Shown: positions 32,607 to 51,032 of the stretch, piece by piece
Layout: each line of letters starts with the position of its first letter
Numbering within the stretch: the first letter of the stretch is position 1
DNA from: a virus
Direction: 5' to 3' (one strand)
Virus record (IMG/VR): IMGVR_UViG_3300042197_002762
Location: 96,001-160,000 of that record
Length of the DNA stretch: 64,000 nucleotides
Program-made: the position numbers and the translations under genes
The notes under the pieces: model-generated
The model's input: only the letters and a program-made list of their open reading frames with translations
What the model was told of the DNA's origin: nothing
Databases searched by the model: none

Positions 32607-34355
32607 TTATGTTACGATTTTTGGTTTTGCTGGTAATTGGTTATTTCCAGTCCAATTACAGCTTCTTGGATTGGAAGGGTCATAAAAAGTTTGACATCTT
32701 GTTGGTATTATACTATCATTTGGAAGTCTAATTCCAGCAGAAGTTGCAATACCACTTTGTTGACATTGGATTATTATTCCTGTTGGGGTAATAACTTCAT
32801 AACATTTGGAGCCTGTTGGCCAACTTCCCGAGTTAAATAATTTAACAACTTTTTTAACTCTATTATTATTTTTTGTAAAACCTTTATCCCAAAGAGTTCC
32901 GAATAATTTTGCACGAGCGTCTTTTTCAGCACGATTTTTTGCTATGTATTGGGGCTCATTATATGATTTATTACTATAAGCAATTTTTTTAGAAAAGAAA
33001 GTTCCAAATAAACCATTTTCGATACTTTTATCATCAATATAATGTGTATGGGTTGTTCCATTTCCTGATAAAACTCCAGTTCCAGAAACAAAATAATTTA
33101 CAGAGTAAAAATCAAATTGCAAATTATTCGAACCATAATCACCATTTTTTGTTCTTACAACTTCTATTTGAAAAGGCGTCCCACTTGGAATAATACCATT
33201 CCAAGTACCTGTATTCATTGCATCTTTTCTATAAACTGGTTCATATAATTTGTAGAAATTAGTATTTGCTAATGGAACATTTTGTTTAAGTCTAACTTGT
33301 TCTAAGTTTACAAATTCAACAAACGAGTTATCAGAACCACTAGTAAAACCAGAACCAGAAATAAATGTTCCGGATTCTGGGAACTTTCTATAACTTAAAC
33401 CACTAAAAGCAGTATCTTCACTAGAAACAGAAATTAAACTGCCACTTCTTAATATATATACATCTCTAGTACCAACAACTTGACCATTTTTTCCAGTTTT
33501 TGGTGCTGCATTTGGTCTTCCAGAAAGTTCAGCCCAAAATCCCGAAAAGGTTTCTACTTTATGAGGGCTTACGTAAACAATATTTTTTGTATTTATTCCT
33601 GTACTGATTATGATTAAATCCTTTATACCAGTAGTAACATTATTACCACTCAATGAAAATATATTTTTAATTTTAGGAACAACAACTAAATCATGCCTAA
33701 AGGCTGGAAAGGATTTGGTTTCATAAGAGTGTGGATAAGTAGCCCATCTGGCACCGCTTGGTAAATTGCCACTAGTATTACCAACTAAAACGCCAGTTTC
33801 ACCTAAACCAGAACCATATATTTTATTTTTGTTATAAGAAACTCTTGTGGTAGCAATTTTATAAAATTGAGAAAACCCTGTAGTTAACTTGAAATATCTT
33901 TCTTTTTCTCCAAATCTTATTCCGGTAACTCCAGATACTACGAAAGTTTGCTCTGGAGAAGAAGTTAAACGACTAAATGAAGCAAAAATAGGATCATAAG
34001 GATTATCTGGATATACTTGATTATAGACAGAATAATTTAATAATTCACCATTGGTTTGAATAGAACTTTCTGATTCTGCATAAAAATAATTCGTTTGACG
34101 AATATCGGAATTTTGAATTTCAACATATTTTTCTCCATTAGCCTCTTCTGAAACTAATGTTAAAACTTGCTTTGGTTTTCTTAAAGTTCCCAAGTTGATA
34201 TTTTTTATTCTTATATTTGTATAAGATAAAGGCTCTTTTGTTTTTTTATCAAAAGATATGGGTGATAAATTTTCTAAATCTTTTTTAAGATTATCTACTT
34301 GTGAACGATCAATTAGGCCAAGGCCTAATTTTCTTCTTTTATAATTGCTATTCAT
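32607..34355 (-). CDS. large Ser/Gly/Thr-rich protein, putative tail/virion component
   Basis: 582 aa, repeated SG/TG dipeptides, in a late-motif transcription unit. Confidence 0.5.
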   Translation of the reverse strand: MNSNYKRRKLGLGLIDRSQVDNLKKDLENLSPISFDKKTKEPLSYTNIRIKNINLGTLRKPKQVLTLVSEEANGEKYVEIQNSDIRQTNYFYAESESSIQTNGELLNYSVYNQVYPDNPYDPIFASFSRLTSSPEQTFVVSGVTGIRFGEKERYFKLTTGFSQFYKIATTRVSYNKNKIYGSGLGETGVLVGNTSGNLPSGARWATYPHSYETKSFPAFRHDLVVVPKIKNIFSLSGNNVTTGIKDLIIISTGINTKNIVYVSPHKVETFSGFWAELSGRPNAAPKTGKNGQVVGTRDVYILRSGSLISVSSEDTAFSGLSYRKFPESGTFISGSGFTSGSDNSFVEFVNLEQVRLKQNVPLANTNFYKLYEPVYRKDAMNTGTWNGIIPSGTPFQIEVVRTKNGDYGSNNLQFDFYSVNYFVSGTGVLSGNGTTHTHYIDDKSIENGLFGTFFSKKIAYSNKSYNEPQYIAKNRAEKDARAKLFGTLWDKGFTKNNNRVKKVVKLFNSGSWPTGSKCYEVITPTGIIIQCQQSGIATSAGIRLPNDSIIPTRCQTFYDPSNPRSCNWTGNNQLPAKPKIVT

Positions 34356-34362
34356 TATGTTT

Positions 34363-34726
34363 AATCCGCCATCCAGATGTCAGTTACTAACCTAAGTTCG
34401 TCCACGACCAGTGAACTACCCTAGGATTTGGGTCCGAATCTAGTAGGTCTCCGAACCAGCTCGGCAAAACTTTGTGTCTTGACTGTTGAGTGGCTCAATG
34501 CAACAATGATGTTATCGTATACTTGTTTATAATATACTTCTTTATGTCACCATAAAGGTCAGACTATATCTTCTTTCTTACGAAAGTTCGGGCGCTCGTG
34601 GGCCGTATTATTGTTGGGACTCAACAGCCTAGTCGTTACACCTTCCATCTTATCTTTCCCAGATGGCTTGGATCGGGATTGTCTTTATTTCTAAAGAGTT
34701 TCCCCGAATTCACCCGATAACGGACT
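34363..34726 (-). ncRNA. group I self-splicing ribozyme, apparently circularly permuted
   Basis: P3 UCGGGUG/CGCCCGA; P4-P6 AAUUCGGGGAAAC...GACAAUCCCGAUCCAAGC...GAAGGUGUA; P7 ACGACUA/UAGUCU; J8/7 AAGAUA; P9 with GUGA tetraloop; 5' and 3' ends pair. Confidence 0.8.
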
Positions 34727-34734
34727 TGCTAAAA

Positions 34735-34746
34735 TTTTAAAGAACT
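34735..34746 (-). promoter_or_regulatory. boxA-like antitermination element
   Basis: AGTTCTTTAAAA between GTGTAA (34755-34760) and the ribozyme. Confidence 0.5.
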
Positions 34747-34808
34747 ATTTATTATTACACATTATTTTTTAAATAGACTTAAATTTTAAATTAAAGTATA
34801 ATAAAATT

Positions 34809-35069
34809 ATGATCGCAGAAATATTTGGAATAATAATGACATTAAGTTTTATGTTGTGTTATCTTCCTCAAATTGTTAAAATTTATAAAAATAAATCATC
34901 AGAAGGCGTATCTTTAATGCTTGTAATTATGTGCATAATTGGGTATATATCTGGGATGATATATATGTTTTTAACCCAGTTTGGAATTTGGTGGTTTGCA
35001 AATTATTCTGTTGGGTTAATAATGTGTATAATACTTGTTTATGCTTGGTTTAAATTTGCAGAAAAATAG
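34809..35069 (+). CDS. PQ-loop / SemiSWEET-like membrane protein
   Basis: YLPQIVKIYKNKSSEGVSL, three TM helices; promoter TAGACT-17-TATAAT at 34774-34802. Confidence 0.8.
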   Translation: MIAEIFGIIMTLSFMLCYLPQIVKIYKNKSSEGVSLMLVIMCIIGYISGMIYMFLTQFGIWWFANYSVGLIMCIILVYAWFKFAEK

Positions 35070-35072
35070 TTT

Positions 35073-35146
35073 GGGGGATTGTTGTAATGGTAGCGAGCGG
35101 CCTTTACACGGCTGAAGCAGGAGTTCGATTCTCTTATCCCCTACCA
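35073..35146 (+). tRNA. tRNA-Val(UAC), CCA encoded
   Basis: GGGGGAT/ATCCCCT acceptor, anticodon loop TTTACAC, T-loop TTCGATT. Confidence 0.88.
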
Positions 35147-35184
35147 TTAAATGTCTTTAGTGGTATATTGGTGTAATCACATAT

Positions 35185-35721
35185 ATGACCACTATTTTAA
35201 AAGAATATATCATTAAGGATAAACATGGAAAGAGCCGTAGTCATGTTGATTTTAAATGTGATTTTTGTTCTAAAAAACATACTAAAGAAAAAAGATTAGT
35301 TAAAAATAATAATTTTTGTTCAGTTTTATGTTCCAATAATTTTAGATATAAAGATGTAAAAAAAATTAAAACAAAATGCGCATATTGTAAACAAGATATT
35401 ATTCGAAGTCCATCTAAACATCGAGCTAAGTCTGGTTTATGTTTTTGCTCTAAGAAATGCAAAGACGAAGGTCAAAAAATTAAAAACAATATACAAGATG
35501 TTTGGCCATCTCATTATGGTTTGGCAAATGGTTTCCATTCTTACAGAAAACTAGCTTTATCTCATTATGAAAAAAAATGTGCAAAATGTGGATATAAAAA
35601 AATTCCAGATATTTTACAGGTGCATCATATAGATCATAATCGAAGCAATAATGATATTAATAATTTACAAATTTTATGCCCTAATTGTCATTCTATAGAG
35701 CATTTGTGTAAAAAAGATTGA
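35185..35721 (+). CDS. HNH endonuclease with N-terminal Cys/Zn repeats
   Basis: CxxC...FCS..C repeats; CAKCG...QVHHIDHNRSNN...LCPNCH. Confidence 0.88.
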   Translation: MTTILKEYIIKDKHGKSRSHVDFKCDFCSKKHTKEKRLVKNNNFCSVLCSNNFRYKDVKKIKTKCAYCKQDIIRSPSKHRAKSGLCFCSKKCKDEGQKIKNNIQDVWPSHYGLANGFHSYRKLALSHYEKKCAKCGYKKIPDILQVHHIDHNRSNNDINNLQILCPNCHSIEHLCKKD

Positions 35722-46919: not shown

Positions 46920-47536
46920 ATATTTTAATATTAGGTGGCACACAAATGATTGGTAAGGATTTTACTAATCTTTTAATTACTAATAATAAAAATTATAAAA
47001 TAATTATAGCGAATCGTGGGCTAACAAGGCCAGATTTATTTCCTAATATACCTCATGTTAAAATAGATAGAAACATAGAGTCAACATGCCAAGTGTTATC
47101 CAATTATAATTTTGATATTGTGGTTGATTTTTCATGTTATACCGTAGATCAATTCAGTAATACATATAAATATTTAAAATATAATAAGTATATTTATATA
47201 TCTACAATGTCCGTACATGAAAAGCATATTATAAATAATCTTGATTTAAATAATAATTATCATAGATATTGTATAGGTAAATATCTAATTGAAGAATTTA
47301 TATTTAACAATAAAATAAGAAATTGCTTAATTATAAGGCCTTGTGCGATTTATGGCGAGGATGATTATACAAATAGGTTTTATAAGAAAGATGGTGAGTA
47401 TTATTGGAAATCGAATAACTCTAAAGTTGGAACTGGAACAATGTTTGTAAAAGATTTCTCTAAATTACTTAGCTATCATATACATAGCTACCCAGAAATT
47501 GGTGCTATAGATGTTTGTGAAAAATGGTGGACGTGA
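46916..47536 (+). CDS. NAD-dependent epimerase/dehydratase family protein
   Basis: ILILGGTQMIG, YIYIST, YCIGK, IIRP..IYG. Confidence 0.8.
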   Translation: MNILILGGTQMIGKDFTNLLITNNKNYKIIIANRGLTRPDLFPNIPHVKIDRNIESTCQVLSNYNFDIVVDFSCYTVDQFSNTYKYLKYNKYIYISTMSVHEKHIINNLDLNNNYHRYCIGKYLIEEFIFNNKIRNCLIIRPCAIYGEDDYTNRFYKKDGEYYWKSNNSKVGTGTMFVKDFSKLLSYHIHSYPEIGAIDVCEKWWT

Positions 47537-47959
47537 GGAGAGTTGAACTCCTGTCCATTTAATTTACATTAAAAAGTCTACATGTTTAAGTGTTTTTGGT
47601 ATTTGGTTGGCTAAAGGTTACCTTGGTACACTAACCTATCTTTTAAAGCCTACCTATGCAGAGAACATTCTGCATAATGTTCAACAATTATTTTTACAAT
47701 TAAGTTGACTTCATAAACCTATTGCAGTTCCAACGCTTTTAATAGGATCCAGACATTGGTTCTTAGGCAGCCATCAAGTATTCTTCTTCAACACCGCCGA
47801 GAAACTCGTCGGAGTTATTGAAGATGTACTCAGCTTCTGCCAAGATCGAGTCAGTATTATCTTCTGCTCTTAATTTTTTAATCGATTTTTTACGAGGCCA
47901 TCGATTAACCTCGACATGCGTTTTTAATTTCAACCAAATGTCGAAACCAGTACACGCCC
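47525..47959 (-). ncRNA. ssrA: tmRNA with 34-aa tag AEDNTDSILAEAEYIFNNSDEFLGGVEEEYLMAA
   Basis: 5' GGGCGTGTACTGGTTTCGAC; 3' GGAGTTCAACTCTCCTCACGTCCACCA; G3:U70; tag frame 47867-47763 ends in AA. Confidence 0.93.
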
Positions 47960-47963
47960 AAAA

Positions 47964-47975
47964 TTTCAAAGATCT
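47964..47975 (-). promoter_or_regulatory. boxA-like element in tmRNA leader
   Basis: AGATCTTTGAAA; GTGTAA at 47999-48004. Confidence 0.5.
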
Positions 47976-50985: not shown

Positions 50986-51032
50986 TTGACAAACTTATAA
51001 AATAAGTGTATAAAAGTAATAGTTCTTTGAAA
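50986..51032 (+). promoter_or_regulatory. sigma70-type promoter plus boxA-like element
   Basis: TTGACA-17-TATAAA (50986-51014), AGTTCTTTGAAA (51021-51032). Confidence 0.65.

What the first reader, a model, noticed from the sequence alone, without database searches (positions are those of the whole stretch)
34363..34726. Apparently natural circularly permuted group I intron (PIE-like ribozyme) with its own promoter
Seen on the minus strand: a complete group I core closely resembling Azoarcus-type introns (AAUUCGGGGAAAC...GACAAUCCCGAUCCAAGC...GAAGGUGUAACGACUA...AAGAUAUAGUCU, P9 with GUGA loop). Only ~40 nt separate the GTGTAA motif from P3, with no host gene, 5' exon or P1 there. Instead the RNA's 5' end AGUCCGUUA (34726-34718) pairs with its far 3' end UGGCGGAUU (34371-34363), forming a P2 opened at its loop. 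A P1-like hairpin GUU|AG-UAA-CU-GAC with a U.G pair (U34389, G34381) lies downstream of the likely omega-G (34501, P9.0 GAC/GUU). The order is therefore 3' intron half - exon - 5' intron half. Known: this geometry is the engineered permuted-intron-exon design that makes circular RNA; natural permuted group II introns are described. I know of no well-characterised natural permuted group I case, but could not check the literature.
Basis: partly seen in the sequence, partly recalled or inferred. Interest (0 to 1): 0.92.

Follow-up and report, generated by a model that had tools for sequence, protein, structure and literature searches.

The report
Natural permuted group I ribozyme
An uncultured freshwater phage carries a complete group I self-splicing ribozyme whose cutting site lies behind its catalytic core instead of in front; this should cut the next gene's mRNA free and probably close a 140-nt RNA into a ring, a layout I found in print only as an engineered design.

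Summary
The group I core is real: Rfam RF00028 scores 69.6 bits at 34540-34773(-). No host gene, 5' exon or upstream P1 exists. Its helix assignments are not.

Eleven relatives show what the helix joining the RNA's two ends is. It is P1 opened at its loop, not P2.
- **P1:** G34725 pairs with U34364. This G.U wobble and the three pairs next to it are kept in all 11 sequence types, with compensatory changes.
- **Omega-G:** G34504, which ends a terminal block shared with conventional relatives.
- **P10:** 34729-34726 pairs with 34503-34500 and also covaries.
it fails. Its 'splice U' is A in two relatives.

Predicted reaction: GTP cuts between U34364 and U34363, 8 nt before the AUG of a conserved 582-aa gene.

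Catalysis is untested; no RNA run was listed as holding the stretch. I found no published natural case. The closest design is the engineered 'self-targeting and splicing' system. This scan has already noted similar elements on other DNA.

The parts
34754..34760 (-). GTGTAAT motif, a promoter-like element
   Evidence: Kept upstream of the element in all WIN-clade relatives. The gene upstream is divergent, so a promoter must lie in the roughly 80 nt before the ribozyme. Its function is inferred.
34730..34745 (-). Conserved leader or promoter-proximal motif GTTCTTTAAAATTTTA
   Evidence: Nearly invariant in 11 relatives. Similar AGWTCTTTGAAA motifs follow the promoters of the tmRNA and of a large ncRNA in this window.
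34726..34729 (-). P10 5' strand (GCAA), just 5' of the guide G
   Evidence: Pairs with 34503-34500 (UUGC). Contiguous P10 pairs summed over 11 sequence types are 29, against 11.0 +/- 4.3 when partners are permuted.
34721..34725 (-). Internal guide sequence, the P1 5' strand (GUCCG); G34725 is the wobble G
   Evidence: The G.U pair plus the next three pairs are intact in 11 of 11 sequence types (33 of 33 cells). Pair types are UA/GC/AU and CG/GC (helix 1).
34718..34720 (-). J1/3 linker (UUA)
   Evidence: Conventional relatives without P2 also place the guide strand a few nt before P3.
34517..34717 (-). Catalytic core: P3 34717-11/34594-88; P4 34707-02/34678-73; P5 34697-92/34687-82; P6 34666-61/34650-45; P7 34634-30/34566-62; extra hairpin 34629-34601; P8 34586-82/34577-73; P9 34557-51/34546-40; P9.1 34537-32/34522-17
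   Evidence: Rfam RF00028 match. In one search, 87.6% of cells pair against about 40% when partners are slid, P7 is invariant, and P3, P4, P6, P8, P9 and P9.1 show compensatory changes.
34504..34516 (-). 3'-terminal block GAUAACAUCAUUG; omega-G = G34504
   Evidence: The block GAUAACA-N3-6-G is shared with conventional introns of the class. In L150, joining the exons at this G restores an open frame. A G is present here in all 13 aligned members.
34364..34503 (-). 'Exon', the predicted 140-nt circle: variable 5' part 34503-34450, conserved 3' domain 34449-34364
   Evidence: Lies between omega-G and the 5' splice site. All three frames carry stops. Pa 34443-38/34378-73 covaries. Pa_in is 34437-34/34383-80. 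Pa_out 34447-46/34370-69 changes from C-G to U-A in L294. The Pb hairpin 34425-34391 has a UGGUC loop and a compensatory 34415/34401 change in a related contig.
34364..34368 (-). P1 3' strand (CGGAU); predicted cut after U34364
   Evidence: Covaries with 34725-34721: CGGAU, CGGCU, AGCUU, AGCAU, GGGAU and CGGUU match GUCCG, GGCCG, GAGCA, GUGCA, GUCCA and GACCA.
32607..34363 (-). Released downstream mRNA: 8-nt leader UAAACAUA, then AUG 34355-34353 of the 582-aa ORF
   Evidence: ORF. The ribozyme precedes the homologous gene in all 11 look-ups that returned DNA, down to 31% protein identity. Pfam and PHROGs give no family.

Best explanation
This is a stand-alone group I ribozyme permuted at the P1 loop. 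Transcription starts a few nt to about 20 nt before the guide sequence. The guide strand GUCCG (34725-34721) sits 3 nt before P3. It pairs with CGGAU (34368-34364), which lies 140 nt downstream of omega-G, and this forms P1 with the wobble pair G34725.U34364. A free guanosine or GTP bound in the intact P7 site attacks the bond between U34364 and U34363. That detaches the mRNA of the 582-aa gene, which now starts with the added G and an 8-nt leader. The 3'-OH of U34364 is held on the guide. P10 (34729-34726 with 34503-34500) aligns it, and it attacks behind omega-G34504. This closes 34503-34364 into a 140-nt non-coding circle and releases the linear core. Shown here: the sequence, the helices, and their covariation and conservation. 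Inferred: the promoter, both chemical steps, and any role of the circle.
For: Core: the Rfam match. The structure as a whole pairs in 87.6% of cells against about 40% when partners are slid, with 38 pairs changed on both sides. No upstream exon or P1: and upstream sequences in relatives lack any complement to the guide. P1: the G.U pair plus three pairs hold in 33 of 33 cells over 11 sequence types, with compensatory changes; permuting partners gives P about 2e-5. L308 against L430 shows A-U changed to U-A. Position: conventional relatives without P2 place the guide strand directly before P3. Omega-G: it ends a block shared with conventional introns. P10: 29 contiguous pairs against 11.0 +/- 4.3. 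Selection: the element precedes the homologous gene in 11 of 11 look-ups, down to 31% protein identity. A second clade (L054, L041) and a third exon type (L428) keep the same layout with unrelated 'exons'.
Against: There is no biochemical or transcript evidence, so catalysis is untested. The P1 duplex is short, and on any single sequence it is no better than chance. The guide G lies 6-7 nt from P3, against 8-11 nt in conventional relatives. P10 is weak in L294/L297, which have no pair at the junction, and in L428, which has one pair. The register in L308 and L430, which have two adjacent G.U pairs, was chosen by distance to P3 and is not certain. The sequence types are related, so the permutation P values overstate independence. 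The cut falls between an SD-like GGCGGA and the AUG, which is hard to reconcile with simply helping translation. The transcription start is not mapped.
Confidence: 0.6

Rival explanations
1. Cleavage-only leader ribozyme. P1 and the first step are as above, but the second step is vestigial or rare. The element's job would be only to cut the mRNA just before its start codon, or to separate two cistrons as in L054. The 34503-34364 stretch would be a scaffold that presents the substrate strand, not a cargo.
For: The cut lies 4-40 nt before a start codon in every member. The conserved exon helix Pa abuts the P1 substrate strand with no spacer, like a positioning domain. 'Exons' differ wholly between clades. 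P10 is weak in L294 and L428.
Against: Omega-G and its terminal block are kept in all members, and P10 covaries overall. Neither would be needed for a one-step cleaver.
Confidence: 0.2
2. The end-to-end helix is P2 opened at its loop. P1 is the hairpin 34391-34379 with U34389.G34381. Omega-G is G34501, and a 112-nt circle forms.
For: The hairpin exists in the window sequence and is invariant in six close relatives. Some conventional relatives, such as L150, do have a P2.
Against: U34390 is C in L300, L302, L305 and L307 without compensation. In L308 and L430 the 'splice U' is A and two of five pairs break. CUGA 34383-34380 extends the covarying Pa helix instead. With G34501 as omega-G no P10 can form. 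The conserved G.U in the end-to-end helix has no explanation if that helix is P2. The L054 clade has no such hairpin.
Confidence: 0.05
3. Inactive relic or purely structural leader. A former intron core would be kept as a folded 5' UTR that affects mRNA stability or translation without any transesterification, with the end-to-end helix simply closing the fold.
For: No activity data exist. The single-sequence duplex is at chance level.
Against: All catalytic-core junctions and P7 are invariant across relatives whose neighbouring protein has diverged to 31-49% identity. A G.U wobble at a fixed place and P10 covariation are specific to the splicing chemistry.
Confidence: 0.12

Closest known systems
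Engineered 'self-targeting and splicing' (STS) and ribozyme-upstream circularisation systems built on the Tetrahymena group I intron (Cui et al. 2023, PMC10415121; Lee et al. 2023, cited in PMC13542726)
   Same: The order of parts is the same: guide sequence at the 5' side, intact ribozyme, omega-G, the RNA to be circularised, and a target U at its 3' end that pairs with the guide.
   Different: Those are laboratory constructs with a different intron (Tetrahymena IC1). The element here is natural, phage-borne, of the phage IA-like type, carries a small non-coding insert, and sits directly in front of a gene.
Classical permuted intron-exon (PIE) constructs (Puttaraju and Been 1992, recalled from memory; described in PMC11417360)
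   Same: The exon lies between the 3' and 5' splice sites, so splicing gives a circular exon.
   Different: PIE splits the intron inside a peripheral loop, so its two halves flank the exon. Here the core is in one piece and only P1 is opened.
Natural circularly permuted group II introns (Roth et al. 2021, PMC8637638)
   Same: These are natural self-splicing ribozymes with permuted domain order that yield RNA circles.
   Different: They belong to a different ribozyme class, with different chemistry (branching) and different hosts.
Conventional ORF-less phage group I introns of the same sequence class (for example L150, and the tandem introns in L135, L136 and L157)
   Same: The same core, the same GAUAACA-N-G terminus, and the guide strand directly before P3.
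   Different: They interrupt coding sequence, and the 5' exon lies upstream of the guide.
GIR1 lariat-capping ribozyme, and the c-di-GMP-II riboswitch-controlled group I ribozyme of Clostridioides difficile (both recalled from memory)
   Same: Both are group I-derived RNAs upstream of a gene that reshape the mRNA's 5' end.
   Different: Neither family's Rfam model matches at E up to 10. GIR1 lacks P1 and branches 3 nt after omega-G. The C. difficile RNA has conventional exon order and an aptamer.

Membership tests
Group I catalytic intron (Rfam RF00028) | Covariance-model match above the gathering score | tested here: met
   69.6 bits against a gathering score of 50, model positions 1-253.
Group I catalytic intron (Rfam RF00028) | P3-P9 core with the P7 guanosine site and the J3/4, J6/7 and J8/7 junctions | tested here: met
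   P7 and the junctions are invariant in 13 sequences. P3, P4, P6, P8 and P9 show compensatory changes.
Group I catalytic intron (Rfam RF00028) | P1 with a U.G wobble at the 5' splice site, formed with an internal guide sequence | tested here: met
   Present, but the U strand lies downstream of the core. G34725.U34364 is kept in 11 of 11 sequence types.
Group I catalytic intron (Rfam RF00028) | Omega-G at the 3' end, with P10 to the 3' exon | tested here: met
   G34504 ends the conserved block. P10 has 29 contiguous pairs against 11 +/- 4.3 when permuted.
Group I catalytic intron (Rfam RF00028) | Interrupts a host gene whose exons are joined in 5'-to-3' order | tested here: not met
   There is no upstream exon or ORF, and the splice sites are in reversed order. 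It is therefore a group I ribozyme but not a conventional intron.
Group I catalytic intron (Rfam RF00028) | Guanosine-dependent transesterification | not testable with these tools
   This needs in vitro transcription with GTP and Mg2+.
Permuted or STS-type circularising design | Order: guide - core - omega-G - insert - 5' splice site, on one transcript | tested here: met
   The same order holds in three clades with unrelated inserts.
Permuted or STS-type circularising design | A covalently closed insert RNA is produced | not testable with these tools
GIR1 lariat-capping ribozyme | Match to the family model; no P1; branch point 3 nt after omega-G | tested here: not met
   No GIR1 match at E up to 10 in 34000-35200. 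A P1 with G.U is present, and 140 nt separate omega-G from the closing strand.
c-di-GMP-II riboswitch plus group I ribozyme | A c-di-GMP-II aptamer next to the ribozyme | tested here: not met
   No riboswitch family matches at E up to 10.

The most novel reading that the evidence does not exclude
Phages use P1-permuted group I ribozymes as a general device. One transcript both releases a gene's mRNA with a fresh GTP-derived 5' end and makes a small, stable circular non-coding RNA. The conserved fold of that circle (helices Pa and Pb with a GGUC loop) would have a function of its own during infection.
Probability: 0.3. Interest if true: 0.9.

Novelty: new variant of a known kind. Interest (0 to 1): 0.82.

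Why it matters
Group I introns have been studied for forty years as elements that join exons in order. Permuted versions that make RNA circles are an engineering design central to today's circular-RNA production. A natural, conserved, phage-borne version would show three things. Evolution reached the 'ribozyme first, target behind' layout on its own. It would add a protein-free route to circular RNA and to mRNA 5'-end formation in bacteria and their viruses. It would also supply compact, naturally optimised scaffolds of about 225 nt, and several families of small circular RNAs of unknown function to test.

Tried and rejected
- **RNA evidence:** The look-up of sequencing runs listed no RNA holder. 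The four DNA contig sets I laid showed no joints.
- **Close relatives in IMG/VR by protein pattern:** none.
- **DNA pattern scans for more members:** only the L300 contig again, three metagenome contigs, only L054 and L041 for the second clade, and 115 chance matches without a core. The 15-mer scan gave almost only chance hits.
- **Conventional P1 upstream:** Rfam's P1 for the window (34773-34745) is AU-rich and not kept in relatives. No complement to the guide lies upstream.
G34370 instead covaries with C34446 inside the exon, changing to U-A in L294. L304 has a mismatch at 34721.
- **Guide pairing with the conserved exon motif UUCGGACCC:** rejected, because the motif does not change when the guide does, as in the L298 type.
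- **Coding circle with an endless frame, as in earlier scan notes:** rejected; there are 8 stops per three turns in every frame.
- **tRNA-like or known RNA family in the exon:** none.
- **Protein family of the downstream gene:** none in Pfam or PHROGs.
- **Other permuted cases among about 170 fetched cores:** candidates with a short upstream frame (L123, L066, L012, L028, L150) looked like conventional introns.
- **Covariance model:** not built. The element exceeds the practical size for calibration, and P1/P10 and P3/P7 cross each other.

Full report
**What is there.** The window is part of a complete 178-kb viral record with terminal repeats, from freshwater metagenomes. It is AT-rich and carries a tRNA array and a tmRNA. 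On the minus strand, Rfam's group I model matches 34540-34773 at 69.6 bits against a gathering score of 50. This is the only such match in the genome. The core lies in a divergent gap between a PQ-loop ORF on the plus strand (34809..35069) and a 582-aa ORF on the minus strand (AUG at 34355-34353). No minus-strand ORF lies upstream. By blastn, the nearest cores are introns of Clostridium and Staphylococcus phages. An extra hairpin (34629-34601) sits between P7 and P3'. From memory, that is where phage-type IA introns carry P7.1/P7.2. The 'Azoarcus-like' label is therefore not supported.

**Relatives.** I recovered whole-element homologs by three routes.
- Pattern scans of IMG/VR gave about 170 cores of the same class. 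Two of them, L054 and L041, are also intergenic: they follow the stop of a giant ORF and are followed by a structured stretch and then a gene start.
- Homologs of the 582-aa protein were looked up on their contigs. In all 11 look-ups that returned DNA, the same ribozyme precedes the gene, down to 31% protein identity.
- One metagenome scan added three more.

Together these give 11 distinct sequence types of the critical helices.

**The end-to-end helix is P1.** On single sequences it is no better than chance: between 3% and 27% of shuffles fold as well for the members where this helix is the best duplex, and in L304 and L308 the best duplex lies elsewhere. Comparison settles the matter.
- The inner pairs change together. 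GUCCG/CGGAU (window) becomes GGCCG/CGGCU (L298 type), GAGCA/AGCUU (L308), GUGCA/AGCAU (L430), GUCCA/GGGAU (L428) and GACCA/CGGUU (L054).
- The first pair is always G.U, with the G on the 5' strand and the U on the 3' strand. The next three pairs are standard in 33 of 33 cells. Permuting partners gives P about 2e-5, although the sequences are related.
- A conserved G.U with the G in a strand 3 nt before P3 is the signature of a group I 5' splice site.
- Conventional relatives of this class, the tandem introns of L135, L136 and L157, lack P2 and place their guide strand directly before P3.
G34370 pairs with C34446 inside the 'exon', and both change to U-A in L294 and L297.

GUUAG-UAA-CUGAC (34391-34379) is invariant in close relatives. 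However, U34390 is C in L300, L302, L305 and L307, opposite an unchanged A. In L308 and L430 the proposed splice U34389 is A, and two of five pairs break. Its 3' half instead extends a long helix that covaries strongly. That helix is CYARRU-UCGG (34443-34434) with CUGA-C-AYYURG (34383-34373), and 6 of its 12 pairs change on both sides.

**Omega-G and P10.** After P9 and P9.1 comes the block GAUAACA-N3-6-G, which is shared with conventional introns of the class. In L150, joining the exons at the U.G of P1 and at this G restores an open frame, whereas the unspliced frame stops at once. In the window the block ends at G34504. The four bases before the guide G (34729-34726, GCAA) pair with the four bases after G34504 (UUGC). 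Across the 11 types the two sides change together: AAC/UUG, UA/AU, UAC/AUG, GCU/UGA, GCUA/UGAU and UUAA/GAUU. Summed contiguous pairs are 29, against 11.0 +/- 4.3 when partners are permuted. P10 is needed only for the second step, so it argues for exon ligation, which here means circularisation. It is weak in L294/L297 and L428.

**The whole model.** On a 13-sequence alignment, the full structure (P1, P3-P9.1, exon helices) pairs in 87.6% of cells, against 38-41% when partners are slid by 1-3 columns. There are 38 pairs changed on both sides, and P7 is invariant. The Pb hairpin is misaligned there. It is supported separately by lineage-specific stems and by a related contig with a compensatory change at 34415 and 34401.

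**The 'exon'.** It spans 34503-34364, 140 nt. It is also 140 nt in four other lineages, and 80-192 nt elsewhere. Every frame carries stops, so it does not code. Its 5' part is variable. Its 3' domain is highly conserved and abuts the P1 substrate strand without a spacer. That domain is built from helix Pa with its extensions and hairpin Pb with a GGUC loop. The L054 clade and L428 carry unrelated inserts in the same layout. No Rfam family or tRNA matches the insert.

**Promoter.** The divergent arrangement requires a start within about 80 nt of the ribozyme. GTGTAAT and GTTCTTTAAMAWTTTA are conserved there. Similar leader motifs follow clear TTGACA-17-TAnnAn promoters at the tmRNA and at a large ncRNA in this window. 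The transcription start is inferred, not mapped.

**Mechanism, with odds.** The most likely course (0.6) has two steps.
1. GTP attacks between U34364 and U34363. This frees the downstream mRNA with an added G and an 8-nt leader.
2. U34364 then attacks behind G34504, giving a 140-nt circle and a linear core.

In every member the cut lies 4-40 nt before a start codon. This points to a role in forming the mRNA's 5' end. In the window and in L428 the cut removes an SD-like run, which I cannot explain.

**Known or new.** Five full-text searches found engineered permuted group I systems and natural permuted group II introns. They found no natural permuted group I ribozyme. The engineered 'self-targeting and splicing' layout has the same order of parts. 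This scan has already noted similar elements on other DNA. One earlier report on a relative (e1-5661718) reached the same 140-nt reading, and another (e1-5661734) rejected the pairing.

Noticed in passing
L136:1-2229; L135; L138; L157; also L114 and L065: Jumbo-phage contigs of 127-279 kb hold tandem arrays of 6-10 group I introns spaced about 260-360 nt apart. Rfam scores are 61-101 bits. The exons between them are as short as about 10-120 nt and look protein-coding, so one gene appears to be cut into micro-exons. A literature search found nothing on this.
   Followed up: partly
L054:6765-7085 and L041:1055-1390: A second clade of the permuted ribozyme lies between the stop of a giant ORF (over 2200 aa) and a 127-aa Lys-rich gene. 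It carries an unrelated 80-nt hairpin 'exon', and here the cut would separate two cistrons.
   Followed up: partly
L428:880-1200: A distant relative, whose neighbouring protein is 31% identical, keeps the core, P1 and omega-G. Its insert is a third, unrelated one of about 70 nt with two GC-rich hairpins, and the cut lies 4 nt before the AUG.
   Followed up: partly
window 34735-34746(-), 47964-47975(-), 51021-51032(+): The motif AGWTCTTTRAAA lies just downstream of the promoter at three non-coding RNA units: the ribozyme, the tmRNA, and a roughly 340-nt ncRNA before tRNA-Met. The tmRNA and ncRNA units have clear TTGACA-17-TAnnAn promoters.
   Followed up: partly
window 47525-47959(-): The phage-encoded tmRNA scores 132.5 bits and has a 103-nt insertion relative to the Rfam model.
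   Followed up: no
window 34809-35069(+): An 86-aa PQ-loop membrane protein gene is kept divergently next to the ribozyme in most relatives.
   Followed up: no
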